Below are positions 43,500-58,441 of a stretch of 64,000 nucleotides of DNA, piece by piece (the stretch's first letter is position 1; every line of letters begins with the position of its first letter). The translations under genes and the position numbers were made by a program. The stretch is from Pseudokineococcus basanitobsidens. GTDB taxonomy: Bacteria > Actinomycetota > Actinomycetes > Actinomycetales > Quadrisphaeraceae. The notes under the pieces are model-generated. The model did no database searches. It worked only from the letters and a program-made list of their open reading frames with translations, and was not told the DNA's origin. The stretch covers positions 321,226 through 385,225 of the forward strand of contig NZ_JBBIAA010000001.1 in assembly GCF_037482545.1 (NCBI RefSeq). Reading direction: 5' to 3'.

Positions 43500-43567
43500 G
43501 CGCGCCGGGCCGCCGACCCGTCGCGGGCTGAGGTGCGGGGGCGCGCGTCGGCGGGGAGCCTCGGGCC

Positions 43568-44635: not shown

Positions 44636-44653
44636 CCCGGGCACGCACCGACG

Positions 44654-44695
44654 AGCGGGGTGGCCGGAGGGCCACGACGACCTGCGGCCACCCCG
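44654..44695. terminator. 12-bp-stem hairpin GCGGGGTGGCCG-N18-CGGCCACCCCGC (bidirectional terminator candidate)
   Basis: Perfect inverted repeat in the convergent gap between the quinone oxidoreductase gene (+) and the GH172 gene (-). Confidence 0.55.
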
Positions 44696-44723
44696 CCCTG
44701 CGCCCTCGGTCCTCCGCCCTCGG

Positions 44724-45788
44724 TCAGGGCAGCCGCTGCTCCACGGGCGCGAGGCCGAAGGGCACGTGCGGCAGCTCCTGGTACCAGTAGGCGACCGAGG
44801 AGAGGTCGTCGCTGCGCCGGTTGGCGTGCCCGTGCTCGATGCTCACCCGGATCGAGCGGGTGAAGGGCACGGGGTCCTCGACGTGGAACCGGTACACCGA
44901 GATCTGCCCCGACCAGTTCGGCCCGCCCGGCAGCGTGATGCCGTGGTACGGCGCGCTGTAGGGCTCCGAGGGGCACCACGCGGTGTTCACGTAGTCCTCC
45001 GTGCCGGTCCCGTGCAGGGACGGCGGGAAGGGCTCGTCGTCGACGAAGATCATGTCGTCGCCCTCGCCGTACCAGTTGCCCTCGTCGGTCTCGCGGAGGT
45101 TGACGACGTTGAGCACGCAGCCGACGTAGTGCCCCCGGCCGCGCGCCTCGAGGATGGTGTAGTTCTCCGCCCCGGACAGGTTGGTGCCGCCGAACTGCAC
45201 CTCGTCGTTGGTCAGCCCCTGCTCGGAGATCCCCGGCGTCGGGTTGACCCGGCGCCACTGCGCGTGGAAGCGGCCGAGTCCCTCCTCGAGCTCGTCCAGC
45301 TCGTCGTAGTCGACGTAGTAGTAGACCCACATGTCCTGCTGCTCGCACTCGCTCACCAGCTCGAAGCGCGCGCCGTCGGAGAACGGCATGTGGAACCAGG
45401 AGTTGAAGCCCTTGCCGTCCTGCGGGCTCATCTGCAGCGGCGCCGAGACGAAGTTCGTCGTCCGGGCGTGGCCGACGCCGAAGAAGTCCCCGAGCGGCAC
45501 GAGGACGCTCGGGTGCTCGGCGCCGTCCCACGTGACCCGCAGCACGAGACGCCGCAGGTAGTCGGCGTCCGTGCCGGCGTCGAACCCGGCGGGGGCGACC
45601 GTCATCCAGACGTGGTTCACCGAGCCCGCGCCCGCGATGTCGGCGAGCACGACCGTCTCGCCGGGGCGCACCGTCACCCGGTCGTCGTTGCCGCCCGTGC
45701 GGTCCCAGCTGGACGCGCGGCGACGGCGCGAGGTCCGCAGCCGCGGCAGGTCCCGCAGGCTGCTGCCGAAGGTGCCGTATCCCGTCAT
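44724..45788 (-). CDS. GH172 / DUF2961 family glycoside hydrolase (second paralog)
   Basis: 354 aa with RVTWDGAEHPSVLVPLGDFFGVGH and HGTGTEDYVNTAW. Its ATG lies 1 nt after the sulfatase stop. Confidence 0.8.
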   Translation of the reverse strand: MTGYGTFGSSLRDLPRLRTSRRRRASSWDRTGGNDDRVTVRPGETVVLADIAGAGSVNHVWMTVAPAGFDAGTDADYLRRLVLRVTWDGAEHPSVLVPLGDFFGVGHARTTNFVSAPLQMSPQDGKGFNSWFHMPFSDGARFELVSECEQQDMWVYYYVDYDELDELEEGLGRFHAQWRRVNPTPGISEQGLTNDEVQFGGTNLSGAENYTILEARGRGHYVGCVLNVVNLRETDEGNWYGEGDDMIFVDDEPFPPSLHGTGTEDYVNTAWCPSEPYSAPYHGITLPGGPNWSGQISVYRFHVEDPVPFTRSIRVSIEHGHANRRSDDLSSVAYWYQELPHVPFGLAPVEQRLP

Positions 45789-45789
45789 G

Positions 45790-47265
45790 TCAGCTGCTCC
45801 TGCTCTCGGTGGGGGCCTCGGTGATGCCGGCCGGGACCGGCTGGCTGGGGTGCGGCACGTCGCCGAGCTCGTGCTGCCGGCGCCACATCCGCGCCTCGAG
45901 ATCGCGCCGCACGTCGGCGTAGGCCGGGTCGTCGGCGACGTTGCGCACCTCGTCCGGGTCCTCGGCGAGGTCGTAGAGCTCCCACTCCGGCGGGAAGGTC
46001 CCCGGTCCGGTGCCCGGGAGCCCCATGCCGTCGTTGTAGAAGTAGATGAGCTTGTACCGCTCGGTGCGGAACCCGTAGTGCGCCAGGGCGTGGTGGATCG
46101 GGTCGTCGTTCTCGTAGTAGCGGTAGTACATGCCGTCGACCTCCGGCTCCGGGTCCCCGCCGGTGAGGTCGGCCCAGAAGCTGCGCCCGTGCATCCGCGG
46201 GTGCGGCGCGACGCCGACGGCCTCGAGGACCGTCTGGGCGATGTCCACGTTCGTCACCGTGCCCGCGTGGACGGTGCCCGGGGGGACCGCCCGCGGGTAG
46301 GAGAGCACGAAGGGCATCCGCAGCGACTCCTCGTACATGAACCGCTTGTCGTACCAGCCGTGGTCGCCGAGGAAGAAGCCCTGGTCGGAGGTGTACACCA
46401 GCAGCGTGTCGTCGAAGAGCCCCCGTTCGCGCAGCCGGTCGGTGATTCGCCCGACGTTGTCGTCGACCGAGGCGACGCAGCGCAGGTAGTCCTCCATGTA
46501 GCGCTGGTACTTCCAGAGCGTCAGCTCCTCGCCGGACAAGCCTTCCGGCGGGTCTTGCTTGAGGTCGACGGGGTAGAGGTGGTCGGCGATCGTCATCGCC
46601 TGGTGCCGGGCGGCGAGCGACCTCGTCTCCCAGCCCGTGTCCCCGTCGTGGAAGGTCGCCGGCACCGGGATCGGGTCGGTGTACATGTCCGCGTGCTTCG
46701 CGTCGGGGAACCAGGAGCGGTGCGGCGCCTTGTGGTGGACGAGGACGCACCACGGCGCGTCGCCGCCGAGGCCGTCCAGCCACTCGAGCGCGAGGTCGGT
46801 GATGACGTCGGTGGCGTAGCCGGGCCGCGTGACCATGCCCTCGGGGGTGCGGAACTCGGGGTCGACGTACCGACCCTGGTCGAGCAGCACCTCCCACCGG
46901 TCGAACGACTGCGGGTCGTGGCCCTCCCCGTGGCCGAGGTGCCACTTGCCGAAGACCGCCGTGCGGTAGCCGGCCTCCTTGAGCAGCGACACGAAGGTGG
47001 GCTGGCTCGCGTCGATCGGCGTCGACAGCGTCGTCACGCCGTTCACGTGGCTGTAGGTGCCCGTGAGGATCGAGGCGCGGCTCGGGGTGCAGATCGAGTT
47101 GGTGCAGAAGCAGCTCTCCAGGAGCGCACCCGCGCGGGCGATCTCGTCGATGCGCGGGGTCTCGTTGACGACCGAGCCGTACGCGCCGACGGCGTGCGCG
47201 GCGTGGTCGTCGGTGAGCACCACGACGACGTTCGGGCGGCGGTTGGGCGCCTGGTCCTGGGGCAC
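45790..47265 (-). CDS. sulfatase (formylglycine-dependent arylsulfatase family)
   Basis: Sulfatase signature CTPSRASILTG and GKWHLG. GTG at 47265 with a GGACGAGGAGG Shine-Dalgarno. The maximal ORF begins inside the palindrome at 47361. Confidence 0.8.
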   Translation of the reverse strand: MPQDQAPNRRPNVVVVLTDDHAAHAVGAYGSVVNETPRIDEIARAGALLESCFCTNSICTPSRASILTGTYSHVNGVTTLSTPIDASQPTFVSLLKEAGYRTAVFGKWHLGHGEGHDPQSFDRWEVLLDQGRYVDPEFRTPEGMVTRPGYATDVITDLALEWLDGLGGDAPWCVLVHHKAPHRSWFPDAKHADMYTDPIPVPATFHDGDTGWETRSLAARHQAMTIADHLYPVDLKQDPPEGLSGEELTLWKYQRYMEDYLRCVASVDDNVGRITDRLRERGLFDDTLLVYTSDQGFFLGDHGWYDKRFMYEESLRMPFVLSYPRAVPPGTVHAGTVTNVDIAQTVLEAVGVAPHPRMHGRSFWADLTGGDPEPEVDGMYYRYYENDDPIHHALAHYGFRTERYKLIYFYNDGMGLPGTGPGTFPPEWELYDLAEDPDEVRNVADDPAYADVRRDLEARMWRRQHELGDVPHPSQPVPAGITEAPTESRSS

Positions 47266-47345
47266 GGTGCCTCCTCGTCCTCGAGGGTCCGGCCGCCGGT
47301 CGTGACGGTCGGGTCGGTGGGTGGGGACGACGTCCCCGGCCGGAA

Positions 47346-47361
47346 ATGTACGCGCATACAT
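47346..47361. promoter_or_regulatory. 16-bp palindrome ATGTACGCGCATACAT (one mismatch) in divergent promoter region
   Basis: Lies between the sulfatase gene (-) and the sugar-phosphate isomerase gene (+). Near-identical to 50789..50804. Confidence 0.5.
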
Positions 47362-47488
47362 CGGTGTCCACGGCCAGGGCGGGCGAGGTCCGGGAGGGGA
47401 TTGACACCGCGTCCGCCGTGGTGGTCACCTGCGGCCTGCCGCGAGCCGTGCGGCGGGGACGTCGACGCGCGAGGGAGCCGGGTGGGCC

Positions 47489-48292
47489 GTGGTCGCCATC
47501 GGGGTGCAGCTCTGGACGGTGCGGGACCGCCTCGACGCCGACGTGGACGAGCTCTTCGCGGACCTCGCGTCCGCGGGCGCCGAGGTGGTGGAGCCCTTCG
47601 GGCTGGGCGACCCGGACGTCGCGCCGGGGACGCGGGTGGAGCAGGCCGGGCGGCTGGCGCGCAGCGCGGCCGCCGCGGGGCTCGCCGTCGTCTCCGCGCA
47701 CGCCTTCCTGCCCCCGGCGGACCGGGCCTCCGAGCTCGTCGACGAGATGGGGGCCCTGGGCGCGGGGACCGCGGTGGCCGCCACCCCCGACAGCCTCGCC
47801 GGCTTCTCGCGCGAGGCCCTGACGACCACCACGTCCGTGGTCCGCTACGCGCAGGCCCTCGACGCCCTGGCGGAGGCCTGCTCCGGCCAGGGGCTCCGGG
47901 TCGGCTACCACAACCACGCGTGGGAGTGGGCCCGGACGGAGGACGGGGAGCCGGCCTACGACCGCCTCTGGCGAGAGCTCTCCCCGCTCGTCGTCGCCGA
48001 GGTGGACCTGCTGTGGGCGGCCGCGGCCGGCCAGGACGTCGTCGAGGTCGTCGCGCGGCTGGGGGACCGCGTGCGCCTCCTGCACGCGGGGGACGCCTCG
48101 CCCGCCGGCAACCCGGAGCACCAGCTGCCGTCGGGGCAGGGCGACGTCCCGCTGGCGGCCGCGCTCGCGCGTGCGCCGGGGGTCGAGGCCCTCCTCGTCG
48201 AGGCGACGACGCCGCCGCCGGGCCGCACCGCCCTCGACCTCGTCCGGGACAGCATCACCTGGCTCGCCGCACGGGTGCCGCCGGCGCGCTGA
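47489..48292 (+). CDS. sugar phosphate isomerase/epimerase (xylose-isomerase-like TIM barrel, IolE/IolI-like)
   Basis: 267 aa with GLRVGYHNHAWEW and TIM-barrel AP-endonuclease-2 family features. Confidence 0.7.
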   Translation: MVAIGVQLWTVRDRLDADVDELFADLASAGAEVVEPFGLGDPDVAPGTRVEQAGRLARSAAAAGLAVVSAHAFLPPADRASELVDEMGALGAGTAVAATPDSLAGFSREALTTTTSVVRYAQALDALAEACSGQGLRVGYHNHAWEWARTEDGEPAYDRLWRELSPLVVAEVDLLWAAAAGQDVVEVVARLGDRVRLLHAGDASPAGNPEHQLPSGQGDVPLAAALARAPGVEALLVEATTPPPGRTALDLVRDSITWLAARVPPAR

Positions 48293-48378
48293 CCCCGTCC
48301 GCCCACCGGGCCGCGGACGCGTCCCGGTGAGGAGCGCCCGCGCGGTGCTCGACCGCACCCGACGACACAGGAGGACCC

Positions 48379-49542
48379 GTGGACGACCCCGGTGACGCCC
48401 CCACCCGCGTGGCGCTCGTCGGCGCCGGCAACATCGCCGGCCCGTACGCGCAGAGCCTCGCCCGCCACCCCGAGCTCCGCCTCGTCGGCGTGCACGACGT
48501 CGACGGGGGCCGGGCCCGCGACCTCGCCGCCGCGACCGGCTGCCGGGCCTACGCGTCGCCGGCCGAGCTGGCCGACGACGGGGTCGACGTCGCGGTCAAC
48601 CTCACCAGCGCCCCGCACCACTTCGCGACCACGCGCGAGCTGGTCCGGCTCGGGCTCGACGTGTTCAGCGAGAAGCCGCTCGCGCTGAACGCGGAGGAGG
48701 CGCGCGAGCTGGTCGCCCTCGCGCGGGCGACGTCGGTCCGGGTCGCCTGCGCGCCCTCCCTGTGGCTGGGGCGCTCCTACCAGGAGGTCGGGGCCCGCCT
48801 GCGCGAGGGCGAGCTGGGGGCGGTCCGGCTCGTCACCGCGGAGGTGCACCAGGGACGCATCGAGACCTGGCACCCGTCGCCCGCCGCCTTCTTCCGCGTC
48901 GGGCCCGTCGTCGACACGGGCGTGTACGCGCTCGCGTACGTCACCGCGACGCTCGGGCCGGTCCGCCGCGTGCAGGCGACGTCCGCCAGGCTGCTGCCCG
49001 AGCGCACGTCCTCGGCGGGGGAGGCCGTCGAGACGGCCACCGACGACGCGTGGCTGGTGTCGGCCGTGCTGGGGAGCGGCGCGCTGCTCCGGCTGACCTG
49101 CGACTTCTACGTCGACGCCGAGACGGTGCCGCGGGGGGTCGCCTTCCACGGCGACCGCGGCAGCCTGCGCCTCCTCGACCTCTTCGCGCCGGACGCCGCC
49201 GTCGAGCGGGCGGTCGCGGGCGAGCCGTTCGTCGCCGAGGCCCCGGGCGACGCGCTCGAGCTGGACTGGGCCCTGGGGGTCCTCGACCTGGCGCGCGCCC
49301 GCCGGCGGGGGCGTCCCCACCGGCTGTCCGTCGAGCACGCCGGGCACGTCGTCGACGTGCTCGAGGCGGTGGGCCGCTCCGCGGCGACGGGGGCGGCGGT
49401 GGAGGTCACGTCGTCCTTCGAGCTGCCGGCCCTCGACCCGCCCGCGCGTCGCGACGACCCGCTCGGCACCGACGGCCCGCTCGGAGCCGACCGCCCGGCG
49501 GGCGCGGGCACGGGGGAGGAGGAGGGGGCGCGCCCGGGCTGA
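48379..49542 (+). CDS. Gfo/Idh/MocA family oxidoreductase (inositol-dehydrogenase-like)
   Basis: RVALVGAGNIAGPYAQSLARHPELRLVGVHD Rossmann N-terminus. GTG preceded by CAGGAGGACCC. Confidence 0.75.
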   Translation: MDDPGDAPTRVALVGAGNIAGPYAQSLARHPELRLVGVHDVDGGRARDLAAATGCRAYASPAELADDGVDVAVNLTSAPHHFATTRELVRLGLDVFSEKPLALNAEEARELVALARATSVRVACAPSLWLGRSYQEVGARLREGELGAVRLVTAEVHQGRIETWHPSPAAFFRVGPVVDTGVYALAYVTATLGPVRRVQATSARLLPERTSSAGEAVETATDDAWLVSAVLGSGALLRLTCDFYVDAETVPRGVAFHGDRGSLRLLDLFAPDAAVERAVAGEPFVAEAPGDALELDWALGVLDLARARRRGRPHRLSVEHAGHVVDVLEAVGRSAATGAAVEVTSSFELPALDPPARRDDPLGTDGPLGADRPAGAGTGEEEGARPG

Positions 49543-49625
49543 GCGACGGGGCCGGTGCCCTCCGCCGGCCCCCCGGGGGTGCACACTCCCCGCCGGACAC
49601 CCGGGACGAGCGGAAGGGGCTGGCG

Positions 49626-50729
49626 GTGGCGACGACGCGCTCGTCCCGCCCCACCGTCTACGACGTCGCCGACCGGGCCGGCGTCTCCATCGCCACGGTC
49701 TCGCGCGTCCTCCGCCGCCCGGAGACGGTCTCGCCGGGGGCGACGCGACGCGTGCTGGACGCGGTCCGCGACCTCGGCTACGTCCCCAGCGGGAGCGCCC
49801 GCGGCCTCGCCGCCCGGCGGTCCGGCGCCATCGGCGTCGCCTTCCCCGCCTTCGACGACGTCGCGGAGATCGACCCGGTGCCACTGTCCGACGTCCCCGC
49901 CACCATGCGCCTGGACCCGGCGGAGGCGGCCGAGCCCGTCACCAACCTCTACATGGGCGAGGTGACGCGGGGTGTCGAGCTCGAGGCGTGGCGGCACGGC
50001 CTGTTCGCCACGGTCGCGGTCGCGCGCGGGGAGCGTCGCGACGCCGCCCTGGAGGACCTGGCCGGCCGCGTCGACGGGCTGGTCGTCCTGGCGGGGACGA
50101 CGCCCCCCGAGGTTCTCGTCCGCGTCGCCCGCAGCACGCCCGTCGTCGTCGTCGCGAGCCCCCGGGGGGAGGACCCCCTCGACCACGTGCGGACGGCCAA
50201 CGGCCCCGGCATGCGAGCGCTCGTCGAGCACCTGCTCGACCACCACGGGCTGCGCGACGTCGCCTTCGTGGGCGGTGTCGCGGACGTCCCGGACGACCTC
50301 GAGCGCTTCGCCGGGTTCGGCGAGGCCCTCGCCTCCCGGGGCCTGCCCGTGCCCGCGGCGCCGCTGCTGCGGGGGGACTTCACCGAGGAGCGCGGCCGTG
50401 CCCTCGCGCGAGGGCTCGTCGACGCGGGGCGGGTGCCGGAGGCCCTCGTCTGCTCCAACGACCAGACGGCACTGGGCGTCGTCGACGTGCTGCAGCGTGC
50501 CGGCGTCCGCGTCCCCGGGGACGTCGTCGTCACCGGTTTCGACGGCATCGACGCCGCGGGCCGCTCGCGACCGCGCTTGACGACGGTGCACCAGCCCATG
50601 GCGGAGCTCGGGCGCGTCGCCGTCGACGTCCTCCTGCGCCGGCTGGCCGACCCCGCGGCGCCGCTCGAGGACAGGGTGCTGCCCGTCCAGGTGCTCCTGC
50701 GCGAGAGCTGCGGCTGCCTGCGCGCCTGA
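49626..50729 (+). CDS. LacI family transcriptional regulator
   Basis: HTH (TVYDVADRAGVSIATVSRVLR) plus a sugar-binding domain. The GTG start is in frame with the long ORF 48762..50729. Confidence 0.8.
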   Translation: MATTRSSRPTVYDVADRAGVSIATVSRVLRRPETVSPGATRRVLDAVRDLGYVPSGSARGLAARRSGAIGVAFPAFDDVAEIDPVPLSDVPATMRLDPAEAAEPVTNLYMGEVTRGVELEAWRHGLFATVAVARGERRDAALEDLAGRVDGLVVLAGTTPPEVLVRVARSTPVVVVASPRGEDPLDHVRTANGPGMRALVEHLLDHHGLRDVAFVGGVADVPDDLERFAGFGEALASRGLPVPAAPLLRGDFTEERGRALARGLVDAGRVPEALVCSNDQTALGVVDVLQRAGVRVPGDVVVTGFDGIDAAGRSRPRLTTVHQPMAELGRVAVDVLLRRLADPAAPLEDRVLPVQVLLRESCGCLRA

Positions 50730-50788
50730 GTCGTCCACATCTGCGGGCACCCGCCCGGGGGGCTGTCGCCCGCCCCTTGCCCCGGTGG

Positions 50789-50804
50789 ATGTATGCGCAT
50801 ACAT
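50789..50804. promoter_or_regulatory. perfect 16-bp palindrome ATGTATGCGCATACAT upstream of ABC operon
   Basis: Lies 71 bp upstream of the substrate-binding protein ATG at 50875 and 60 bp downstream of the LacI gene stop. Confidence 0.55.
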
Positions 50805-50874
50805 TCACGGCACGACACGGCGGGCGCCGACGACGGCGCCCCCGCTCGCGTGACGACGACGACACGGAGGAGAC

Positions 50875-52548
50875 GTGCCCATGAGGTCCACGAGGACGAC
50901 CACCCGCCCGCGACGCCTCACGGCGGCGACGGGCGTCGCGCTCGCCGCGGCGCTCGTCGTGAGCGGCTGCACCGGCGCGCAGGGGCCGCAGGGCTCCGGC
51001 GGGGCGGACGCCGCGGGGACGATGCTCTTCGCCGGCGACAACGGCTCGCCCAACTTCACGCGGAACTTCAACCCGTTCAACCCGACGGGGCGCAAGGGCG
51101 CGTTCCACATCTACGAGCCCCTGACGGTGCTCAACACGATCGACGGCGAGTCGACGCCCTTCCTCGCCGAGTCCGTCGAGCAGGTGGACCCGCAGACGGC
51201 CGTGTTCACGCTGCGCGAGGGCGTCACGTGGTCCGACGGCGAGCCGTTCACGGCCGACGACGTCACCTTCACGTTCCAGATGCTCAAGGACTTCCCGGCG
51301 CTCGACCTCGACGGCGTGTGGCAGCGGCTCGACTCCGTCGAGGCGGACGGCATGGACGTCACCATGCACTTCTCCGAGCCGGACGTCCCGGCCACGGACA
51401 TCGTCGGCGGCACCGTGATCGTCCCGCAGCACCTGTGGGCCGACGTCGAGGACCCGGTCTCCTACGCGGACGAGGACCCGGTGGGCACGGGGCCCTTCAC
51501 GCTCGGCAGCTACTCGGACACGCAGTACACGCTCGAGAAGAACCCGGACTACTGGCAGGCCGACCAGGTGGCGGCGGACGAGCTCGTCATCCCCGCCTCC
51601 AACGAGCAGCTGGACCTCGTCAACAAGGGGTACGACTGGGCCTACGCCTTCATCTCCGACGTCGAGAACACCTGGGTGGCCGCGAACGAGGGCAACACGT
51701 ACTGGTTCCCGCCGGGCGGGACCATCTCGCTGTACCCGAACCTCACGCAGGCGCCCTTCGACGACGTGGACTTCCGGCGAGGGCTGTCCCTGGCGCTGGA
51801 CCGCGAGTCCATCGCCGAGACCGCCGAGGAGGGCTACGTCGACGCCGCACCGCAGACGGGCCTTCTCCTGCCGGGCCAGGAGGACCTGACCGACGGCGAC
51901 ATCCCGAACGGCGGGGAGGTCGCGCAGGACACGGACGCGGCGCTGGAGGCCTTCGCCGCCGCCGGCTACACCCAGCAGGGCGGCACGCTCGTCGGGCCGG
52001 ACGGGCAGCCCGTGACGCTGTCCATCACGACGGCGAACGGCTACACGGACTGGCTGCGCGGCGTCCAGGAGGTGCAGCGGCAGCTGCAGGCGATCGGCAT
52101 CGCCGTGACGATCGAGCAGCCGCAGGCCGCCGCCTACCAGCAGGCGATCAACAACGGCGACTTCCAGCTCGCCATGGGCGGCTTCGGCGGGACCGGCTCG
52201 TACTACCGCGACATGAACCAGCTGCTGAGCAGCGAGTTCCTCCAGCCCGTCGGCACGGCCGCGTCCTCGAACTTCCAGCGCTTCTCGGACCCGCAGGTGG
52301 ACGAGATCCTCGCGCAGTACCAGGCGGCGACCGACCCGGCCGAGCAGGCGGAGCTGGCCGGGCAGCTGCAGGAGGTCATGTACGACCAGGTCCCCGTGAT
52401 CGCCATGTTCTACGGCGGGCTGTGGGGCCTGTTCAGCGACGAGAAGTTCACCGGGTGGCCCTCGGACGAGGACCCGTACGCGACGCCCATCACGTACGAC
52501 TCCAACGTGCTGCTCATCGACACGAACCTCGAGCGCGCCGGGAGCTGA
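50875..52548 (+). CDS. ABC transporter substrate-binding lipoprotein, family 5 (Opp/Dpp-type, oligosaccharide/peptide)
   Basis: 557 aa. Has a signal peptide plus lipobox (VVSGCT) and the SBP_bac_5 fold. Confidence 0.85.
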   Translation: MPMRSTRTTTRPRRLTAATGVALAAALVVSGCTGAQGPQGSGGADAAGTMLFAGDNGSPNFTRNFNPFNPTGRKGAFHIYEPLTVLNTIDGESTPFLAESVEQVDPQTAVFTLREGVTWSDGEPFTADDVTFTFQMLKDFPALDLDGVWQRLDSVEADGMDVTMHFSEPDVPATDIVGGTVIVPQHLWADVEDPVSYADEDPVGTGPFTLGSYSDTQYTLEKNPDYWQADQVAADELVIPASNEQLDLVNKGYDWAYAFISDVENTWVAANEGNTYWFPPGGTISLYPNLTQAPFDDVDFRRGLSLALDRESIAETAEEGYVDAAPQTGLLLPGQEDLTDGDIPNGGEVAQDTDAALEAFAAAGYTQQGGTLVGPDGQPVTLSITTANGYTDWLRGVQEVQRQLQAIGIAVTIEQPQAAAYQQAINNGDFQLAMGGFGGTGSYYRDMNQLLSSEFLQPVGTAASSNFQRFSDPQVDEILAQYQAATDPAEQAELAGQLQEVMYDQVPVIAMFYGGLWGLFSDEKFTGWPSDEDPYATPITYDSNVLLIDTNLERAGS

Positions 52549-52634: not shown

Positions 52635-53615
52635 GTGCGCTACTTCGCGCGCCGGCTCGGCCTGTTCGCGCTCACCGCGTGGGCCGCGATCACGCTGAAC
52701 TTCCTCCTGCCCCGGCTGATGCCGGGCTCCCCGGCCGACGCCGCCATCGCCCGGCTGGCCCAGAACGGGCCCGTCGACGCCGCGACCCGCGCCGCGATCG
52801 AGTCCCAGCTCGGCGTCCCCACCGGGAGCACGCTCGCGCAGTACTGGGACTACCTCGGCAACGTCGTGACGCTCGACTTCGGCGTCTCCTACACCTTCTT
52901 CCCGCAGACGGTGTCCTCGCTCGTCGCCGGCGCGCTGCCCTTCACGCTCGTGCTCGTCGGGCTCGTCACGATCGCCGCCTTCGTCCTGGGCACCCTCGTC
53001 GGCGTCCTCGCGGCGTGGCGGCGCGGGACCCGGCTGGACGCGCTGCCGACGCTGACGGGGAGCTTCCTCGCCGCCTTCCCGTACTTCTGGACGGCGCTGC
53101 TGCTCCTGTTCCTCCTCGGCTACACGCTCGGCCTGTTCCCGACGTCGGGCGCCTACAGCCCGTACACGACGCCGGGGCTCAACGCGCCCTTCCTCTCCGA
53201 CGCCGTCGCGCACGCGGCGCTGCCGGCGCTGACGATCCTCATCACCTCGCTCGGCGGGTGGATCCTCGGCATGCGCAACGCGATGATCGGCACGCTCGGG
53301 GACGACTACGTCACCTTCGCCGAGGCGAACGGGCTGCGGTCGCGGACCGTGGCGCTGCGCTACGCCGCCCGCAACGCCATCCTCCCGAACCTCACCGGCT
53401 TCGGCCTCGCGCTCGGCGGGGTGGTCGGCGGGTCGCTGCTCGTGGAGCAGGTCTTCGCCTACCCCGGCGTCGGGTACCTGCTCTACAACGCGGTGACCAA
53501 CCAGGACTACCCGCTCATGCAGGCCCTGTTCCTGATGATCACGTTGAGCGTCCTCGTCGCGAACGTCGTCGTCGACACGCTCTACGGGATCCTCGACCCG
53601 AGGACTCGCCGATGA
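52635..53615 (+). CDS. ABC transporter permease (DppB/OppB-like)
   Basis: GTG after GAGAGG. Six TM helices in the BPD_transp_1 arrangement. Confidence 0.85.
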   Translation: MRYFARRLGLFALTAWAAITLNFLLPRLMPGSPADAAIARLAQNGPVDAATRAAIESQLGVPTGSTLAQYWDYLGNVVTLDFGVSYTFFPQTVSSLVAGALPFTLVLVGLVTIAAFVLGTLVGVLAAWRRGTRLDALPTLTGSFLAAFPYFWTALLLLFLLGYTLGLFPTSGAYSPYTTPGLNAPFLSDAVAHAALPALTILITSLGGWILGMRNAMIGTLGDDYVTFAEANGLRSRTVALRYAARNAILPNLTGFGLALGGVVGGSLLVEQVFAYPGVGYLLYNAVTNQDYPLMQALFLMITLSVLVANVVVDTLYGILDPRTRR

Positions 53616-54577
53616 CCACGCCCACGACGCTCCCCGACCCCGGCGGTGCCGAGAGCGAGCGCCCCGCAGGGGCTCCCGACTCGGCGCCGCCGGACCTGCC
53701 GACCGGCGCGCCGCCCCGGTGGAAGGTCGTCACCCGCGCCGGCGCCACGATCTGGGTCAACCGGAAGGCGCGGCTCGGCCTGGTCGTCCTCGCCTTCTTC
53801 CTGCTCGTCGCCGTCCTGGCGCCGGTGCTGGCGCCCTACGGGCCGACCGTCAACGACTTCGAGCGCAGCGCGGGGCCGAGCGGCGCCCACTGGTTCGGGA
53901 CGACGGCGGCCGGCGAGGACGTGCTGTCGCAGGTGATCTACGGCGCCCGGATCTCGCTGCTCGTCGGCTTCGTCGCCGGCGCGCTGTCCACGGTCGTCGC
54001 CGTCGTCGTCGGCCTGTCCTGGGGCTACGTGCGGGGCTGGGCCGCCGACGTCGTCAACTTCGTCGTCAACCTGTTCCTCGTCATCCCCGGGCTGCCGCTG
54101 ATGATCGTCATCGCGGCCTACCTGCAGAACAGCGGGCTCGGCATGATCATCTTCGTCGTCGTCCTCACCGGCTGGGCGTTCGGGGCCCGGGTGCTGCGGT
54201 CGCAGACCCAGTCCCTGCGCGGGCGGGACTTCGTGACGGCCGCCCAGTTCTCCGGCGAGAGCTCGGCCCGGGTGGTCTTCCGGGAGATCTTGCCGAACAT
54301 GACGTCCATCATCGCGAGCAGCTTCTTCGGCGCCGCGACGGCGGCGATCCTCGCCGAGTCCGGCCTGTCCTTCCTCGGCCTCGGGGACACCACCCAGGTG
54401 AGCTGGGGGACGATGCTGTTCTGGGCGCAGAACTCCAACGCGCTGCTCACCGGCCAGTGGGTGCTGCTGCTCGCGCCGGGCCTGTGCATCGCCCTGCTGG
54501 CGACCTCGCTGTCCCTCGTCAACTTCGGGGTGGACGGCCTGTCCAACCCCCGCCTGCGGGAGGGGAGCGGACGATGA
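53612..54577 (+). CDS. ABC transporter permease (DppC/OppC-like)
   Basis: ATGA overlap with the upstream stop. Has an OppC N-terminal region and TM helices. Confidence 0.85.
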   Translation: MTTPTTLPDPGGAESERPAGAPDSAPPDLPTGAPPRWKVVTRAGATIWVNRKARLGLVVLAFFLLVAVLAPVLAPYGPTVNDFERSAGPSGAHWFGTTAAGEDVLSQVIYGARISLLVGFVAGALSTVVAVVVGLSWGYVRGWAADVVNFVVNLFLVIPGLPLMIVIAAYLQNSGLGMIIFVVVLTGWAFGARVLRSQTQSLRGRDFVTAAQFSGESSARVVFREILPNMTSIIASSFFGAATAAILAESGLSFLGLGDTTQVSWGTMLFWAQNSNALLTGQWVLLLAPGLCIALLATSLSLVNFGVDGLSNPRLREGSGR

Positions 54578-56262
54578 GCCTGCTCGAGGTCCAGGACCTG
54601 TCCGTCGTCTACGAGCCGTCCGACGCGCCGGCCACGCACGCCGTCCGCGACGTCTCCTTCTCCCTCGAGAAGGGCGAGTTCGTCGGCCTCGTCGGCGAGT
54701 CCGGCTCCGGCAAGTCGACGCTCGGCTTCGCGCTCACCCGCCTCGCCAAGCCGCCGGCCCGGATCTCCGGCGGGCGCATCCTCTTCGGCGGCGAGGACGT
54801 CGCCGCCCTCGAGGACGAGGCGCTGCGCGCCCAGCGCCGGGGCGGCTTCGCCATGGTGCTGCAGTCCGGCATGAACGCCCTCAACCCGGTGCGGACCGTG
54901 GCGAACCACTTCCGCGACGTCTTCGCCGCCCACGGCCACGTGCCGCGCGAGCGCCGCGACGCCCGGGCGCAAGAGCTGGTCGAGAAGGTCGAGCTGTCGC
55001 CCTCGGTGCTGACCCGCTACCCCGGAGAGCTGTCCGGCGGCATGCGCCAGCGCGTGTCGATCGCGCTGGCGCTGGCGCTCGAGCCGCAGCTCATGGTCTT
55101 CGACGAGCCGACGACGGCGCTCGACGTCCTCGTCCAGCACGCCGTCATGGGCACCATCCGCGACCTCCAGGCCGAGGAGGGCTTCACCGCCCTGCTCATC
55201 AGCCACGACCTCGGGGTCGTGCTGGAGTCGACCTCGCGCGTCATGGTCATGCACGAGGGGGAGATGGTCGAGGACGCCCCGAGCCGTGCGGTGCTGCGGG
55301 ACCCCCAGGACGACTACACGCGGATGCTGCTCAGCCACTACGCCGACCCCCGGGCCGAGGTCGTCGAGCTGCCGGGCCTGTCCGCCCGCGGCGGGGAGCT
55401 CGTGACGTCGTCGGGCTCCGCGGCGGAGCGCGGAGGCGGCGTCGCGCGCGCCGGGCGCACCGCGCACGAGCCCGTCGTCGTCGACGGAGTCAGCAAGATC
55501 TACCCCCCGCCGCGGCGCGGGGCCGCCGAGGTGGTTGCCCTCGACGACGTGTCGGTCCGGCTGGAGCCGGGGCGCTCGATGGCGCTCGTGGGGGCCAGCG
55601 GGTCCGGCAAGTCGACGCTCGCCCAGCTCATCACCGGGGTCACGCGCCCGACCTCCGGCACGATCTCCTTCGGGGACGTGCGGGTGGACCGGCTGCGGCG
55701 GCGCGGCCTGCGCGAGCTGCGGCGCGACGTCCAGATGGTCTTCCAGGACCCGTACGCGGCGCTCAACCCGCTGCACACCGTGGAGTACTCGCTCACCCGC
55801 CCGGTGATGAACTACACGGGCCGGGACCGGCGCGAGGCCCGCACCCGGGTCCTCGAGCTGCTGGAGACGGTGGGGCTCACGCCCGTCGAGCAGTTCGCCG
55901 CCAAGCTGCCGCACCAGCTCTCGGGCGGCCAGCGCCAGCGCGTCGTCATCGCCCGGGCGCTCGCGAGCGACCCGCAGGTCATCGTCGCGGACGAGCCGGT
56001 CTCGATGCTCGACGTCTCGCTGCGCGCCGGCGTGCTCGCTCTGCTGGAGGACCTGAGGGTGCAGCACGGCGTCTCGATGCTGTACATCACGCACGACCTG
56101 CTCTCGGCGCGGGTCGTCACCGACGAGATCGTCGTGCTGCACGACGGCCGGGTCGTCGAGCGCGGCGAGACCTCGCAGGTCCTGCGCTTCCCGCAGGACC
56201 CGTACACCGTCGAGCTGCTCGACGCCGTGCCGCAGCCGGGCCGGGCGGAGGGGGCGGCGTGA
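54574..56262 (+). CDS. ABC transporter ATP-binding protein, fused tandem ATPase (DppD-DppF type)
   Basis: Two Walker A motifs (GESGSGKST, GASGSGKST) and two LSGG signature motifs. Translationally coupled upstream and downstream. Confidence 0.85.
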   Translation: MSLLEVQDLSVVYEPSDAPATHAVRDVSFSLEKGEFVGLVGESGSGKSTLGFALTRLAKPPARISGGRILFGGEDVAALEDEALRAQRRGGFAMVLQSGMNALNPVRTVANHFRDVFAAHGHVPRERRDARAQELVEKVELSPSVLTRYPGELSGGMRQRVSIALALALEPQLMVFDEPTTALDVLVQHAVMGTIRDLQAEEGFTALLISHDLGVVLESTSRVMVMHEGEMVEDAPSRAVLRDPQDDYTRMLLSHYADPRAEVVELPGLSARGGELVTSSGSAAERGGGVARAGRTAHEPVVVDGVSKIYPPPRRGAAEVVALDDVSVRLEPGRSMALVGASGSGKSTLAQLITGVTRPTSGTISFGDVRVDRLRRRGLRELRRDVQMVFQDPYAALNPLHTVEYSLTRPVMNYTGRDRREARTRVLELLETVGLTPVEQFAAKLPHQLSGGQRQRVVIARALASDPQVIVADEPVSMLDVSLRAGVLALLEDLRVQHGVSMLYITHDLLSARVVTDEIVVLHDGRVVERGETSQVLRFPQDPYTVELLDAVPQPGRAEGAA

Positions 56263-57209
56263 GCTCCGCCGGCGACCCCGAGGGCCTGCCGCCGGGCGTC
56301 CGCCGCGGCCGGCCGCTGGGGGCGCTGCCCGTGCCGGACGGCGTCGAGGTGCTCGTGCTCGACGCCGCCGTCGGTCCGTTGACGGCGGCGCGGGCCCGTC
56401 CGCGCGGCGCCGACGGAGCCCTCGTCGAGCCGCGTGGCGCCGCGGTGCTCGTGCCCGGCTTCACGGGCTCCAAGGAGGACTTCTTCGACCTGCTCCCGCG
56501 GCTCGCCGCCGCCGGGTGGGACGCGTGGGCGTACTCCCAACGCGGGCAGGCCGACTCGACGTGGTCGCCCGACGACGCCGGCGGCGGGCGCGGCACCGGC
56601 TACCTGCTACCGGACCTCGCCGGCGACGCCGTCGAGGTGTGCCGTCTCGTCGGGGCCGGAGCCGGCCCGCGGGGCGGGAGAGGGCAGCGCGTGCACCTGC
56701 TCGGCCACAGCTTCGGCGGTGTCGTCGCCCGGGCGGCCGCGGTGACGGCACCCGAGACGCTCGCCAGCCTGACGATGCTCTGCTCCGGGCCGCACGGCTG
56801 GCTCGGGCGCAAGGCGGACCTCCCGCCGCGCCTGGCCGCGGCCGGGGGCCGCAGCCTCTGGGCGCTGGAGGAGACCGAGCTCGCCGGGCGCCCGCCCGAG
56901 GACCTCGAGCCGCTCGACGCCTTCCTGCGCCTGCGCTCGGAGCGCACGTCCACGGCGGCGCTGCTCGGGGCCGTGCAGGTGCTCGCGAGCACGCAGGACA
57001 CGACGGACGTGCTCGCCGCGACCGGCCTGCCGGTGCTGGTCGCCCACGGCGAGGACGACGACGCCTGGCCGCAGCCGTGGCAGCGGGCCATGGCCGAGCG
57101 GCTGGGGGCCCGGCACGCCGTCGTCCCCGGCGCGGGCCACCTGCCCGCCGCGGAGAACCCGGCCGCCACCGCCGCCCTCCTCGACGACTTCTGGTCGGCG
57201 CTCGCCTAG
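56259..57209 (+). CDS. alpha/beta hydrolase fold protein
   Basis: GHSFGG nucleophile elbow. GTGA overlap with the ATPase stop. Confidence 0.7.
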   Translation: MSSAGDPEGLPPGVRRGRPLGALPVPDGVEVLVLDAAVGPLTAARARPRGADGALVEPRGAAVLVPGFTGSKEDFFDLLPRLAAAGWDAWAYSQRGQADSTWSPDDAGGGRGTGYLLPDLAGDAVEVCRLVGAGAGPRGGRGQRVHLLGHSFGGVVARAAAVTAPETLASLTMLCSGPHGWLGRKADLPPRLAAAGGRSLWALEETELAGRPPEDLEPLDAFLRLRSERTSTAALLGAVQVLASTQDTTDVLAATGLPVLVAHGEDDDAWPQPWQRAMAERLGARHAVVPGAGHLPAAENPAATAALLDDFWSALA

Positions 57210-57274: not shown

Positions 57275-58441
57275 ATGCTGCAGTTCCCCGAGGGCTTCCG
57301 CTGGGGCGCGGCCACCGCCGCCCACCAGGTCGAGGGCGGCAACGTCGCCAGCGACTGGTGGGCCCGCGAGCACGCGCCCGGCACGACCGTCCCCGAGCCG
57401 AGCGGCGACGCCTGCGACAGCTACCACCGCTACCCCGAGGACATGCGGCTGCTCGCGGAGGCGGGCCTCGACACCTACCGCTTCTCGGTGGAGTGGGCCC
57501 GCGTCGAGCCCGAGCCGGGTCTCGTCTCCCGCGCGGCGCTGGACCACTACCGGCGCATGGTGGAGACGGCCCGGTCGCTCGGCGTCACGCCGATGGTGAC
57601 GCTGCACCACTTCACGCTGCCGCGGTGGCTCGCCGACCGCGGCGGGTGGCGGGCGCCCGAGGCCGTCGACGCCTTCGCGCGGTACACCGAGACGGTCCTG
57701 CCCGTCGTCGAGGACGTCGACCGCGTCTGCACGATCAACGAGCCCAACATGGTCGCGGTGATGGCGGGGGCCGACGGCGGGGAGAGCCTCGTGGCCGCGG
57801 GCCTGCCGGCGCCGGACCCCGTGGTCACGCAGGCGCTCGTCGCGGCCCACCGGCGCAGCCGCGAGGTCCTCTCCGCCGCCCCGCTCGTGCGCTCGGGCTG
57901 GACCGTCGCCACGCAGGACCACCAGCCCGAGCCCGGCTGCGAGCAGGTGGCGCACGAGTACGGCTACCCGCGCGACGCCCTCTTCCTCGAGGCGGCCGCC
58001 GACGACGACTGGGTCGGCGTGCAGGCCTACACGCGCACGAAGGTCGGGCCCGACGGCCCGCTCCCCGTCCCCGACGACGTCGAGACGACCCTGACGGGCT
58101 GGGAGTACTACCCGCCCGCCCTCGCCGACGGGGTCCGGCTGGCCGCCCGGTGGGCGCCCGGGGTCCCGGTGCTCGTCACGGAGAACGGCATCGCGACGGC
58201 CGACGACGGCCGTCGCGTCGACTACCTGCGCGACGCGCTGCGGGGGCTCCACGAGGTCATGGCCGAGGGCGTGGGCGTCCAGGGCTACCTGGCCTGGAGC
58301 CTGCTCGACAACTACGAGTGGGGTTCCTACGCACCGACGTTCGGGCTCGTGGCCGTCGACCGGACGACCTTCGCGCGCACGCCGAGGCCGAGCCTGCGCT
58401 GGCTGGGCGAGGTGGCCCGCGCCAACGCCCTGCCCGGCTGA
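57275..58441 (+). CDS. glycoside hydrolase family 1 beta-glucosidase
   Basis: FPEGFRWGAATAAHQVEGG, the NEP acid/base region (TINEPN) and the catalytic nucleophile VTENG. The ATG is preceded by AGGAG. Confidence 0.85.
   Translation: MLQFPEGFRWGAATAAHQVEGGNVASDWWAREHAPGTTVPEPSGDACDSYHRYPEDMRLLAEAGLDTYRFSVEWARVEPEPGLVSRAALDHYRRMVETARSLGVTPMVTLHHFTLPRWLADRGGWRAPEAVDAFARYTETVLPVVEDVDRVCTINEPNMVAVMAGADGGESLVAAGLPAPDPVVTQALVAAHRRSREVLSAAPLVRSGWTVATQDHQPEPGCEQVAHEYGYPRDALFLEAAADDDWVGVQAYTRTKVGPDGPLPVPDDVETTLTGWEYYPPALADGVRLAARWAPGVPVLVTENGIATADDGRRVDYLRDALRGLHEVMAEGVGVQGYLAWSLLDNYEWGSYAPTFGLVAVDRTTFARTPRPSLRWLGEVARANALPG

What the first reader, a model, noticed from the sequence alone, without database searches (positions are those of the whole stretch)
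47346..50804. Two copies of 16-bp palindrome ATGTAyGCGCATACAT bracket a LacI regulon (sulfatase and GH172 on one side, oligosaccharide ABC, GH1 and GH94 on the other)
A perfect palindrome at 50789..50804 sits upstream of the family-5 substrate-binding protein operon. A one-mismatch copy at 47346..47361 sits in the divergent promoter region between the sulfatase operon and the isomerase-oxidoreductase-LacI operon. The LacI gene at 49626..50729 lies between them and is the obvious cognate repressor, which would also autoregulate. This links sulfatase and GH172 expression to the presumed beta-glucan phosphorylase locus.
Basis: seen in the sequence. Interest (0 to 1): 0.55.

Follow-up and report, generated by a model that had tools for sequence, protein, structure and literature searches.

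The report
Conserved LacI operator pair, sugar-uptake regulon
The two 16-bp palindromes are very likely the binding sites of the LacI-type repressor encoded between them, an ordinary sugar-operon switch whose one unusual feature is that it ties a cytoplasmic sulfatase and a GH172 glycosidase to a beta-glucoside/beta-1,2-glucan uptake operon.

Summary
ATGTACGCGCATACAT lies at 47346-47361 and ATGTATGCGCATACAT at 50789-50804. They are the only two matches in 64 kb; shuffles give none. [quoted passage not shown]

Comparative evidence supports the LacI at 49626-50729 as the cognate repressor. All 20 fetched loci with a 43-76% identical LacI carry the motif beside that gene. None of 14 loci with a LacI relative of 37% identity or less does, and 1.06 Mb of unrelated DNA has no site at or above 23 bits. 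In 16/16 loci the site before the SBP5 transporter gene contains a -10-like TACNNT, and 15/16 have TTGNNN 5-7 nt upstream. This fits repression by promoter occlusion.

The sulfatase-GH172 pair adjoins this LacI/transporter cluster in 7 genomes. A site precedes the sulfatase in 4 of them, though not in the two closest Pseudokineococcus relatives. Site 1 lies in a window-specific 2.4-kb segment, and its -10-like hexamer faces the sulfatase.

Autoregulation in this genome is unproven.

The motif is cre-like and the HTH resembles CcpA. This is a new member of a known kind. No binding was tested.

The parts
50789..50804 (.). Operator site 2 (ATGTATGCGCATACAT), perfect 16-bp palindrome with central CpG, between the lacI stop and the SBP5 start
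   Evidence: 33.9 bits. Orthologous sites sit in the same position in 16/16 loci that have LacI next to SBP5.
47346..47361 (.). Operator site 1 (ATGTACGCGCATACAT), one mismatch, in the divergent region between the sulfatase and the isomerase
   Evidence: 28.3 bits. It lies in a window-specific segment relative to L029. Analogous sulfatase-proximal sites occur in L116 (81 nt upstream), L030 and, weakly, L031.
50777..50782 (+). Putative -35 hexamer TTGCCC of the SBP5 operon promoter, 6 nt before site 2
   Evidence: Read from the sequence. TTGNNN lies 5-7 nt upstream of the site in 15/16 orthologous loci. Inferred; no transcription start has been mapped.
50800..50805 (+). Putative -10 hexamer TACATT, formed by the last 5 nt of site 2 plus the next T, 17-nt spacer from TTGCCC
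   Evidence: The base after the 16-mer is T in 16/16 SBP5-proximal sites, giving TACNNT. Inferred.
47345..47350 (-). -10-like TACATT on the minus strand, overlapping site 1 and facing the sulfatase; no TTGNNN in the same register
   Evidence: The plus-strand equivalent is TACATC, and there is no TANNNT anywhere between site 1 and the isomerase start.
49626..50729 (+). LacI-family repressor (367 aa): HTH, hinge helix (ARGLA) and sugar-binding core
   Evidence: Pfam PF00356 and PF13377. Best solved relatives are CcpA 1ZVV/1RZR. It falls below every NCBIfam equivalog cut-off.
50875..52548 (+). Family-5 solute-binding protein, first gene of the operon downstream of site 2
   Evidence: Pfam PF00496. 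Nearest solved structures bind sugars: Vibrio chitin-oligosaccharide binding protein 1ZTY, and mannoside-binding protein 4PFU.
52635..56262 (+). Two ABC permeases (52635-53615, 53612-54577) and a fused double ATPase (54574-56262)
   Evidence: Pfam. In-frame start codons. 4-nt overlaps indicate translational coupling.
56259..57209 (+). Alpha/beta-fold hydrolase inside the operon
   Evidence: Pfam PF12697 and PF12146. Also present in L002, L011, L029 and L115.
57275..58441 (+). GH1 beta-glucosidase-like enzyme (388 aa)
   Evidence: Pfam PF00232. NCBIfam BGL 257 bits, below the 478 cut-off. Absent from L029/L115; it is part of window-specific segment 57202-58433.
58491..62045 (+). SOGP-type GH94 phosphorylase (1184 aa)
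   Evidence: Pfam SOGP_N, SOGP_2nd, GH94 and SOGP_4th. PDB 5H3Z E=1.2e-152.
45790..47265 (-). Cys-type (CTPSR) sulfatase without a signal peptide, first gene of the operon on the minus side of site 1
   Evidence: Pfam PF00884 and PF16347. Translation. Nearest solved structure is GlcNAc-6-sulfatase 5G2V, E=6e-108.
44724..45788 (-). GH172 (DUF2961) glycosidase, cytoplasmic; starts 2 nt after the sulfatase stop
   Evidence: Pfam PF11175. PDB 4KQ7 and 7V1V. 92% identical to Pseudokineococcus sp. 5B2Z-1. A hairpin follows the gene.
47489..49542 (+). Xylose-isomerase-like TIM barrel (47489-48292) plus GFO/IDH/MocA oxidoreductase (48379-49542), a window-specific insertion between the sulfatase and lacI
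   Evidence: Pfam. Absent from L029/L115. Homologues elsewhere sit in GntR-type clusters without the motif. Regulon membership is uncertain.

Best explanation
The window comes from Pseudokineococcus basanitobsidens. The two palindromes are operators of the local LacI-family repressor encoded at 49626-50729. A dimer would bind each 16-bp site, with the hinge-helix leucine at the central CpG. Site 2 covers the spacer and -10 hexamer of the promoter for the SBP5-permease-permease-ATPase-hydrolase-GH1-SOGP operon, so the bound repressor would exclude RNA polymerase. An imported beta-linked gluco-oligosaccharide or a derivative (sophorose or a sophoro-oligosaccharide is the obvious candidate) would release it. 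Site 1 is predicted to bind more weakly and overlaps a -10-like hexamer facing the sulfatase-GH172 operon, which would put these two cytoplasmic enzymes under the same signal. What is shown: sequence, statistics, conservation of the motif with the orthologous regulator, conserved promoter geometry, and recurrent gene linkage. What is inferred: binding, repression, the effector, transcription starts, and any effect of site 1 on the isomerase-oxidoreductase-lacI genes.
For: (a) The two sites are the only ones in 64 kb and shuffles give none. (b) 14/14 genome loci with a 43-62% identical LacI (L001-L013, L019) carry a site of 24.5 bits or more next to that gene. None of the 14 loci with a LacI relative of 37% identity or less does. 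Six further loci found through GH172 also carry it: L029, L030, L115, L116 and L117 at 27.6 bits or more, L031 only weakly. The best score in 1.06 Mb of unrelated DNA is 20.0 bits. (c) The synteny LacI-site-SBP5-perm-perm-ATPase-(hydrolase)-GH1-(SOGP) is conserved across Mycetocola, Sanguibacter, Cryobacterium, Luteimicrobium, Frondihabitans, Kineococcus, Rhodoglobus, Microbacterium, Amycolatopsis, Brachybacterium and Pseudokineococcus. (d) Promoter overlap is conserved: TTGNNN, then 5-7 nt, then the 16-mer, whose last 5 nt plus an invariant following T form TACNNT. The -10 holds in 16/16 loci and the -35 in 15/16. (e) The recognition region PTVYDVADxAGVSIATVSRV is essentially invariant in the 16 orthologues inspected and differs in paralogues, including the other HTH-bearing LacI in this window. 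(f) The HTH and hinge align closely with CcpA, and the motif ATGTAWGCGCWTACAT is cre-like; compare the E. faecalis cre CTGTAAGCGCATACA in PMC8262876. (g) It is an even palindrome with central CG at -86..-71 from the start codon, as is typical for LacI-family sites (PMC4052901). (h) Sulfatase link: the sulfatase-GH172 pair adjoins the cluster in 7 genomes. Sulfatase-proximal sites occur in the window, L030 (27.6 bits), L116 (24.3 bits, 81 nt upstream, with TTGTAC -35 and TACGTT -10) and L031 (19.3 bits).
Against: There are no binding, expression or transcription-start data. Site 1 carries a C at position 6, where every other collected site has A or T, so it may bind weakly. It has no -35 in the conserved register: TGGACA sits only 3 nt upstream, which gives a 14-nt spacer. 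The two closest relatives (L029, L115) and L117 have no site before the sulfatase, so that part of the regulon is not universal. Site 1 lies in DNA absent from L029. The tool's sigma-70 consensus scan found no promoter in 44500-51200, although that consensus suits this 76% G+C genome poorly. The genome-wide distribution of the motif in this organism is unknown.
Confidence: 0.8

Rival explanations
1. Site 1 mainly or additionally controls the isomerase-oxidoreductase-lacI genes, giving autoregulation. It could have arrived with, or evolved for, the inserted 2.4-kb segment. This does not exclude control of the sulfatase.
For: Site 1 lies inside the window-specific segment 47240-49643 that also carries the two inserted genes. 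Three same-strand genes are separated by gaps of 86 and 83 nt with no terminator-like structure. Sites directly upstream of lacI occur in L008, L010, L011, L012, L019 and L030. 72% of LacI-family regulators are predicted to autoregulate (PMC4052901). The site lies -143..-128 from the isomerase start, at the edge of the usual range.
Against: The plus strand has no TANNNT hexamer at or downstream of site 1 before the isomerase start. The only -35-like TTGACA (47401-47406) lies 40 nt downstream of the site, so a repressor at site 1 would not occlude it. Homologues of the inserted pair in other genomes sit in GntR-type clusters without the motif. The closest relatives have no site before lacI.
Confidence: 0.35
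2. Site 1 has little or no regulatory effect. It would be a weak or recently acquired copy, and only site 2 matters in this genome.
For: It carries a unique C at a position that is otherwise always A or T. It has no in-register -35. No equivalent site exists in the two nearest relatives or in L117.
Against: A 15/16 match in a 223-bp intergenic region of a 76% G+C genome is very unlikely by chance. Its distance to the sulfatase start (80 nt) matches the 81 nt in Brachybacterium L116. The following T that completes TACATT is present on the sulfatase side.
Confidence: 0.15
3. The palindromes are bound by a different, global factor rather than the neighbouring LacI: a CcpA-like catabolite regulator recognising cre-like sites, or a LexA-type repressor.
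For: The motif resembles Firmicute cre sites. It also resembles the E. coli LexA crystal operator CTGTATGCGCATACAG (PMC4655474).
Against: In every locus examined, the motif is found only beside orthologues of this LacI. Its outer bases are ATGT/ACAT, not the CTGT/ACAG required by gammaproteobacterial LexA. From general knowledge, actinobacterial LexA boxes are of the GAAC-N4-GTTC type and CcpA/HPr-Ser-P control belongs to Firmicutes. The LacI scores 139 bits against the ccpA equivalog cut-off of 442.
Confidence: 0.04

Closest known systems
CebR/CelR of Streptomyces and Thermobifida (LacI-family cellobiose sensor controlling cebEFG-bglC)
   Same: An actinobacterial LacI-family local repressor encoded next to an oligosaccharide ABC importer and a cytoplasmic GH1 beta-glucosidase. 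It acts through a short perfect palindrome with a central GCGC (TGGGAGCGCTCCCA; PMC4358012 and PMC5332605).
   Different: The operator sequence differs (TGTAWGCGCWTACA versus TGGGAGCGCTCCCA). The transporter here is an Opp/Dpp-type family-5 system with a fused ATPase. The regulon contains an SOGP phosphorylase, an alpha/beta hydrolase, a sulfatase and a GH172. The effector is unknown.
CcpA-cre of Firmicutes
   Same: CcpA is the best solved-structure match for the regulator, and the HTH and hinge are very similar. The motif family ATGTAWGCGCWTACAT includes the ideal cre-type palindrome TGTAAGCGCTTACA. A near-identical cre is listed for E. faecalis.
   Different: CcpA is a global regulator that needs HPr-Ser-P. 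Here the sites are confined to the regulator's own neighbourhood in every locus examined. The protein fails the ccpA equivalog cut-off (139 versus 442 bits) and carries an extra segment of about 28 residues after the hinge.
Listeria innocua lin1838-lin1843 SOGP cluster
   Same: A LacI-family gene adjacent to a 1,2-beta-oligoglucan phosphorylase, a beta-glucosidase and an ABC importer. The authors suggested that the LacI gene regulates the cluster (PMC3960220).
   Different: In Listeria the glucosidase is GH3. No operator is mentioned in the passage I read, and no sulfatase or GH172 appears in the cluster description there. The transporter families were not compared.
RegPrecise-style LacI-family regulogs (Ravcheev et al. 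2014)
   Same: An even 16-bp palindrome with central CG, located 30-140 bp upstream of start codons, forming a local regulon around the regulator gene (PMC4052901).
   Different: I found no paper containing this motif for an actinobacterial regulator. I did not check whether this orthologous group is in that collection.

Membership tests
LacI/GalR-family transcription factor (the protein at 49626-50729) | N-terminal LacI-type helix-turn-helix | tested here: met
   PF00356 E=8e-16, residues 10-55.
LacI/GalR-family transcription factor (the protein at 49626-50729) | Hinge helix with the leucine that inserts at the central CpG | tested here: met
   SARGLAARR aligns with the CcpA hinge ARGLASKK in 1ZVV/1RZR. 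The role of the leucine comes from general knowledge of LacI, PurR and CcpA structures.
LacI/GalR-family transcription factor (the protein at 49626-50729) | C-terminal periplasmic-binding-protein-like effector domain | tested here: met
   PF13377 E=1e-33 and PF00532.
LacI-family operator | Even palindrome of 16-22 nt with central CG | tested here: met
   16-nt palindrome, centre C|G. Criterion from PMC4052901.
LacI-family operator | Located about 30-140 bp upstream of a regulated start codon, usually near the regulator gene | tested here: met
   Site 2 lies at -86..-71 from SBP5. Site 1 lies at -96..-81 from the sulfatase and -143..-128 from the isomerase.
LacI-family operator | Conserved upstream of orthologous target genes and co-occurring with orthologous regulators | tested here: met
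   All 20 orthologue loci carry it. None of the 14 loci with a distant LacI relative does, and 80 GH172 metagenome loci have none.
LacI-family operator | Specific binding by the cognate protein, relieved by an effector | not testable with these tools
   Needs EMSA, footprinting or DAP-seq.
CcpA (catabolite control protein A) / cre | Protein reaches the ccpA equivalog score | tested here: not met
   TIGR01481 scores 139 bits against a cut-off of 442.
CcpA (catabolite control protein A) / cre | Global distribution of sites and HPr-Ser-P dependence | not tested
   Only 64 kb of the genome and about 20-kb flanks of related loci were available. Within them, sites occur only next to the regulator.
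[quoted passage not shown] | Four-domain SOGP architecture and close similarity to a characterised SOGP | tested here: met
   PF21958, PF21250, PF17167 and PF21270. 5H3Z E=1.2e-152.
[quoted passage not shown] | Phosphorolysis of sophoro-oligosaccharides | not testable with these tools
   Needs an enzyme assay. I did not check the catalytic residues.
CebR-type regulon | Operator TGGGAGCGCTCCCA | tested here: not met
   The motif here is ATGTAWGCGCWTACAT. CebR box from PMC4358012 and PMC5332605. It works like CebR but is not a member.

The most novel reading that the evidence does not exclude
In at least seven actinobacterial genomes from several genera (Pseudokineococcus, Brachybacterium, Arthrobacter and two metagenome contigs) this LacI/operator system is linked to a cytoplasmic Cys-type carbohydrate sulfatase and a highly conserved, uncharacterised GH172 clade. 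The sulfatase's nearest solved relatives are GlcNAc-6- and galactose-6-sulfatases. Both enzymes sit beside an Opp-type sugar importer and a GH1, with or without SOGP. The most novel reading is that this is an undescribed pathway: a sulfated beta-linked oligosaccharide or glycoside is imported intact, then desulfated and cleaved in the cytoplasm, with GH172 acting on a new substrate. On this reading, SOGP-based beta-1,2-glucan phosphorolysis is a lineage-specific add-on. The inserted oxidoreductase/TIM-barrel pair could add an oxidative route for cleaving glycosides.
Probability: 0.2. Interest if true: 0.55.

Novelty: new member of a known kind. Interest (0 to 1): 0.3.

Why it matters
The analysis gives a concrete, testable operator (ATGTAWGCGCWTACAT) and a candidate regulator for an actinobacterial version of the beta-1,2-gluco-oligosaccharide (SOGP) utilisation cluster. 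In the one paper I read on such clusters, regulation was only suggested and no operator was mentioned. It also gives a regulatory and genomic handle on two enzymes of unknown role, a cytoplasmic 6-O-sulfatase-like enzyme and a conserved GH172 clade, by tying them to a defined importer and signal. That narrows the search for their substrate. The mechanism itself, a LacI repressor occluding a promoter, is textbook.

Tried and rejected
(1) Exact look-up of the window's GH172 found nothing on record. The source organism was identified instead through the oxidoreductase, which is 100% identical to Pseudokineococcus basanitobsidens.

(2) Eighty GH172 loci from metagenomes (52-76% identity) had no adjacent sulfatase homologue and no motif. 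The link is therefore confined to the closest GH172 clade (81% identity or more) and is not a general GH172 property.

(3) Homologues of the inserted oxidoreductase/isomerase pair (Naasia, Microbacterium, a Micrococcaceae fusion protein) lie in GntR-type clusters without the motif. I found no evidence that the pair brought the operator with it.

(4) The regions upstream of the sulfatase in six loci do not align, so the ancestry of site 1 could not be traced.

(5) The sigma-70 consensus scan found no promoters. It is uninformative for this G+C content, so I used phylogenetic footprinting instead.

(6) RNA folding of the 86-nt and 83-nt gaps in the plus-strand gene row showed nothing beyond shuffled controls, and Rfam found nothing in 44000-52000. 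There is no terminator or riboswitch evidence either way.

(7) A LexA SOS-box reading was prompted by the E. coli crystal operator CTGTATGCGCATACAG. I rejected it because the outer bases differ and actinobacterial LexA boxes are of a different type (general knowledge).

(8) DNA looping between the two sites, 3443 bp apart, is considered unlikely. The C-terminus shows no obvious LacI-type tetramerisation heptads. This is inference only.

(9) The other HTH-bearing LacI paralogue in the window (about 10371-11237, minus strand) has a different recognition helix.

Full report
OBSERVATION. ATGTACGCGCATACAT lies at 47346-47361 and the perfect palindrome ATGTATGCGCATACAT at 50789-50804. Allowing up to three mismatches, these are the only matches in the 64-kb window, and none of 100 dinucleotide-preserving shuffles produced any match. 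The window is about 76% G+C, which makes an A/T-rich 16-mer even less expected.

GENE MAP. I called genes by third-position G+C, Pfam and in-frame start codons.

- Minus strand: GH172/DUF2961 44724-45788 and sulfatase 45790-47265.
- Plus strand, first group: xylose-isomerase-like TIM barrel 47489-48292, GFO/IDH/MocA oxidoreductase 48379-49542, LacI 49626-50729.
- Plus strand, second group: SBP_bac_5 50875-52548, permeases 52635-53615 and 53612-54577, fused ATPase 54574-56262, an alpha/beta hydrolase 56259-57209, GH1 57275-58441, and a 1184-aa phosphorylase 58491-62045.

The phosphorylase has the four SOGP domains and matches the Lachnoclostridium phytofermentans 1,2-beta-oligoglucan phosphorylase structure 5H3Z at E=1.2e-152. 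The "GH94" can be named more precisely, and the hydrolase was missed.

The oxidoreductase is 100% identical to a Pseudokineococcus basanitobsidens protein, which identifies the source organism.

IS IT THE OPERATOR OF THE NEIGHBOURING LacI? A genome-collection scan with the LacI protein returned 28 loci.

- All 14 loci with a 43-62% identical protein carry the motif next to the gene. These are Mycetocola, Sanguibacter, Cryobacterium, Luteimicrobium, Frondihabitans, Kineococcus, Rhodoglobus, two Microbacterium, three Streptomyces, Amycolatopsis and one actinomycete MAG.
- None of the 14 loci with a LacI relative of 37% identity or less carries it.
- A symmetrised PWM from 19 sites has the consensus ATGTATGCGCATACAT with invariant TG.A.GCGC.T.CA.
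- True sites score at least 23 bits. The best score in 97 unrelated loci (1.06 Mb) is 20.0 bits.
- In the window only the two reported sites score above 8 bits.
- The N-terminal reading region PTVYDVADxAGVSIATVSRV is essentially invariant among the 16 orthologues inspected and different in paralogues. The other HTH-bearing LacI paralogue in this window also differs.

The geometry, an even 16-bp palindrome with a central CG 71-86 nt before the start codon, is the family norm (PMC4052901). The regulator's best structural relatives are CcpA proteins, with a near-identical HTH and hinge. The motif is correspondingly cre-like; an E. faecalis cre reads CTGTAAGCGCATACA (PMC8262876). That is an independent consistency check between the protein and the DNA. 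No NCBIfam equivalog cut-off is reached, so this is an unnamed LacI-family member.

HOW SITE 2 WORKS. In loci with 52% or higher LacI identity, and also in Amycolatopsis (L011, 46%) and Microbacterium indicum (L013, 43%), the synteny LacI-site-SBP5-permease-permease-ATPase is conserved wherever the fetched contig extends far enough; L004 ends just after SBP5. A GH1 follows in most of these loci, an alpha/beta hydrolase in some, and SOGP in L001-L003. I oriented all SBP5-proximal sites the same way.

- The base following the 16-mer is T in 16 of 16 loci, so the last five operator bases plus this T form TACNNT. This matches the actinobacterial -10 pattern TANNNT (general knowledge).
- A TTGNNN hexamer lies 5-7 nt upstream of the operator in 15 of 16 loci.
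- In the window these are TTGCCC (50777-50782) and TACATT (50800-50805), separated by a 17-nt spacer.

The operator therefore spans the spacer and the -10 of the operon promoter. That is the classic arrangement for repression by polymerase exclusion. This step is inferred from conserved geometry; no transcription start has been mapped.

SITE 1 AND THE SULFATASE-GH172 LINK. None of the 14 LacI-anchored orthologue loci contains the sulfatase, GH172, isomerase or oxidoreductase. Searching from GH172 instead and fetching the closest relatives showed that the sulfatase-GH172 pair adjoins this LacI/SBP5 cluster in six further genomes.

- Pseudokineococcus sp. 5B2Z-1 (L029) and an uncultured Pseudokineococcus (L115).
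- Brachybacterium tyrofermentans (L116), where the order is sulfatase-GH172-LacI-SBP5...GH1-sulfatase, all on one strand.
- Arthrobacter pigmenti (L031).
- Two metagenome contigs (L030, L117).

Identities to the window are 81-92% for GH172, 59-89% for the sulfatase and 45-76% for the five LacI genes that passed the coverage filter; the L031 LacI is cut by the locus end.

A site precedes the sulfatase in four of the seven genomes.

- The window: 28.3 bits, 80 nt upstream.
- L116: 24.3 bits, 81 nt upstream, with TTGTAC -35 and embedded TACGTT.
- L030: 27.6 bits, in a 67-bp divergent region shared with lacI.
- L031: 19.3 bits, which is weak.

There is no site before the sulfatase in L029, L115 or L117. 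Eighty more distant GH172 loci from metagenomes have neither the sulfatase nor the motif. The link is real and recurrent, but it is confined to one GH172 clade and is not always accompanied by an operator.

A BLASTN comparison with L029 shows the two genomes are collinear apart from three window-specific segments.

- 43508-44712, carrying an alcohol dehydrogenase.
- 47240-49643, carrying site 1, the isomerase and the oxidoreductase.
- 57202-58433, carrying the GH1.

Site 1 thus sits in DNA that the nearest relative lacks.

On the minus strand site 1 reads ATGTATGCGCGTACAT followed by T. This gives TACATT facing the sulfatase, but there is no in-register -35; TGGACA sits only 3 nt upstream. On the plus strand the equivalent hexamer is TACATC, and no TANNNT exists between site 1 and the isomerase start. 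The only TTGACA (47401-47406) is 40 nt downstream of the site. I therefore favour the sulfatase-GH172 operon as the target of site 1 (about 0.6).

I regard autoregulation through site 1 as possible but unproven (about 0.35). The three plus-strand genes have gaps of 86 and 83 nt with no terminator signal. There is no site in the gap before lacI. More distant orthologues do carry sites immediately upstream of lacI (L008, L010, L011, L012, L019, L030), so autoregulation is common in the group. The two closest relatives lack it.

WHAT THE REGULON MAY DO. The SBP5 protein is closest to sugar-binding family-5 proteins, including the Vibrio chitin-oligosaccharide binding protein and a mannoside-binding protein. 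Neither the sulfatase nor GH172 has a signal peptide. The sulfatase has the Cys-type CTPSR motif and is closest to GlcNAc-6-sulfatase and galactose-6-sulfatase structures. GH172 is closest to an uncharacterised protein (4KQ7) and to the difructose-dianhydride I synthase/hydrolase.

The conservative reading is as follows. Beta-linked gluco-oligosaccharides are imported, with sophoro-oligosaccharides most likely where SOGP is present. SOGP and GH1 then process them inside the cell. A Listeria SOGP cluster likewise has an adjacent LacI gene that its authors suggested regulates the cluster (PMC3960220).

The less conservative reading is that a sulfated oligosaccharide is the true substrate of the variant that carries the sulfatase and GH1. 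I give this about 0.2. Supporting it, L116, L117 and L030 carry extra sulfatases and lack SOGP.

COMPARISON WITH KNOWN SYSTEMS, AND NOVELTY. Functionally this is a CebR-like arrangement: a LacI repressor, an ABC importer, a GH1 and a GCGC-centred palindrome (PMC4358012). The operator is different and cre-like. It is neither CcpA (fails the equivalog score, local distribution) nor CebR (different box). I found no paper containing the motif for an actinobacterial regulator; the only hits were a LexA crystal operator and an enterococcal cre. I classify it as a new member of a known kind. The mechanism is routine. The interest lies in the regulon's content and in the testable operator.

LIMITS. 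Nothing was tested experimentally. Only 64 kb of the genome was available, so regulon size is unknown. Promoter elements are inferred from conservation. The L031 sites (19-20 bits) fall within the background range and count only as weak support.

Noticed in passing
window 43508-44712, 47240-49643, 57202-58433: Relative to Pseudokineococcus sp. 5B2Z-1 (L029) the window is collinear apart from three window-specific segments. They carry a zinc alcohol dehydrogenase, the isomerase-oxidoreductase pair with site 1, and the GH1 gene. The locus looks like a hotspot for small gene insertions.
   Followed up: partly
window 47489-49542; proteins P0138 and P0230; loci L032-L034: The GFO/IDH/MocA oxidoreductase and the xylose-isomerase-like TIM barrel occur as a single fused 644-aa protein in Micrococcaceae. 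As neighbours they sit in GntR-type clusters with ROK, SIS, SDR, FAD-oxidoreductase, PTE and aldolase genes. They probably act as one functional pair; from general knowledge, such pairs carry out oxidative (3-keto) glycoside cleavage.
   Followed up: partly
window 45790-47265 (-) and 50875-52548 (+): The sulfatase is Cys-type (CTPSR), has no signal peptide, and is closest to GlcNAc-6-sulfatase and galactose-6-sulfatase structures. The SBP5 protein is closest to a chitin-oligosaccharide binding protein. I did not look for a formylglycine-generating enzyme in the window.
   Followed up: partly
window about 10371-11237 (-) and 19788-20309 (+): There are two further LacI-family paralogues (33-36% identity). 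The first has a different recognition helix (SPATASRAL). The second matched only over the effector-binding domain, and no HTH was evident upstream in that frame.
   Followed up: partly
L008 13699-13730 and L019 12445-12476: In two distant orthologue loci the full operator is followed directly by a second right-half copy (AGCGCTTACAC and AGCGCATACAT). This suggests tandem or overlapping operators. They precede a GH39 gene (L008) and an SBP_bac_1-type ABC system plus GH1 (L019).
   Followed up: no
window 49854-49940 (LacI residues about 77-105): The regulator has an extra segment of about 28 residues (FDDVAEIDPVPLSDVPATMRLDPAEAAEPV) between the hinge and the core, relative to CcpA. The FDDVEEID-like start of this segment is also present in L029.
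   Followed up: no
window 44635-44700 (-): A strong G+C-rich hairpin (GGGCGGGGTGGCCG...CGGCCACCCCGC) lies just after the GH172 stop. It folds better than shuffles (z=-1.9) and is a plausible terminator shared with the convergent dehydrogenase gene.
   Followed up: no
window 56259-57209 (+): An alpha/beta-fold hydrolase is embedded in the transporter operon; its start overlaps the ATPase stop by 4 nt. It recurs in Sanguibacter, Amycolatopsis and Pseudokineococcus loci. It could be an esterase that removes acyl substituents from imported glucans. This is speculation.
   Followed up: no
loci L116, L029, L031: GH172 is 81-92% identical, and the sulfatase up to 89%, across Pseudokineococcus, Brachybacterium and Arthrobacter. 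The adjacent LacI is only 45-76% identical and SBP5 only 48-87%. This suggests either strong constraint on the sulfatase-GH172 module or its horizontal transfer.
   Followed up: no
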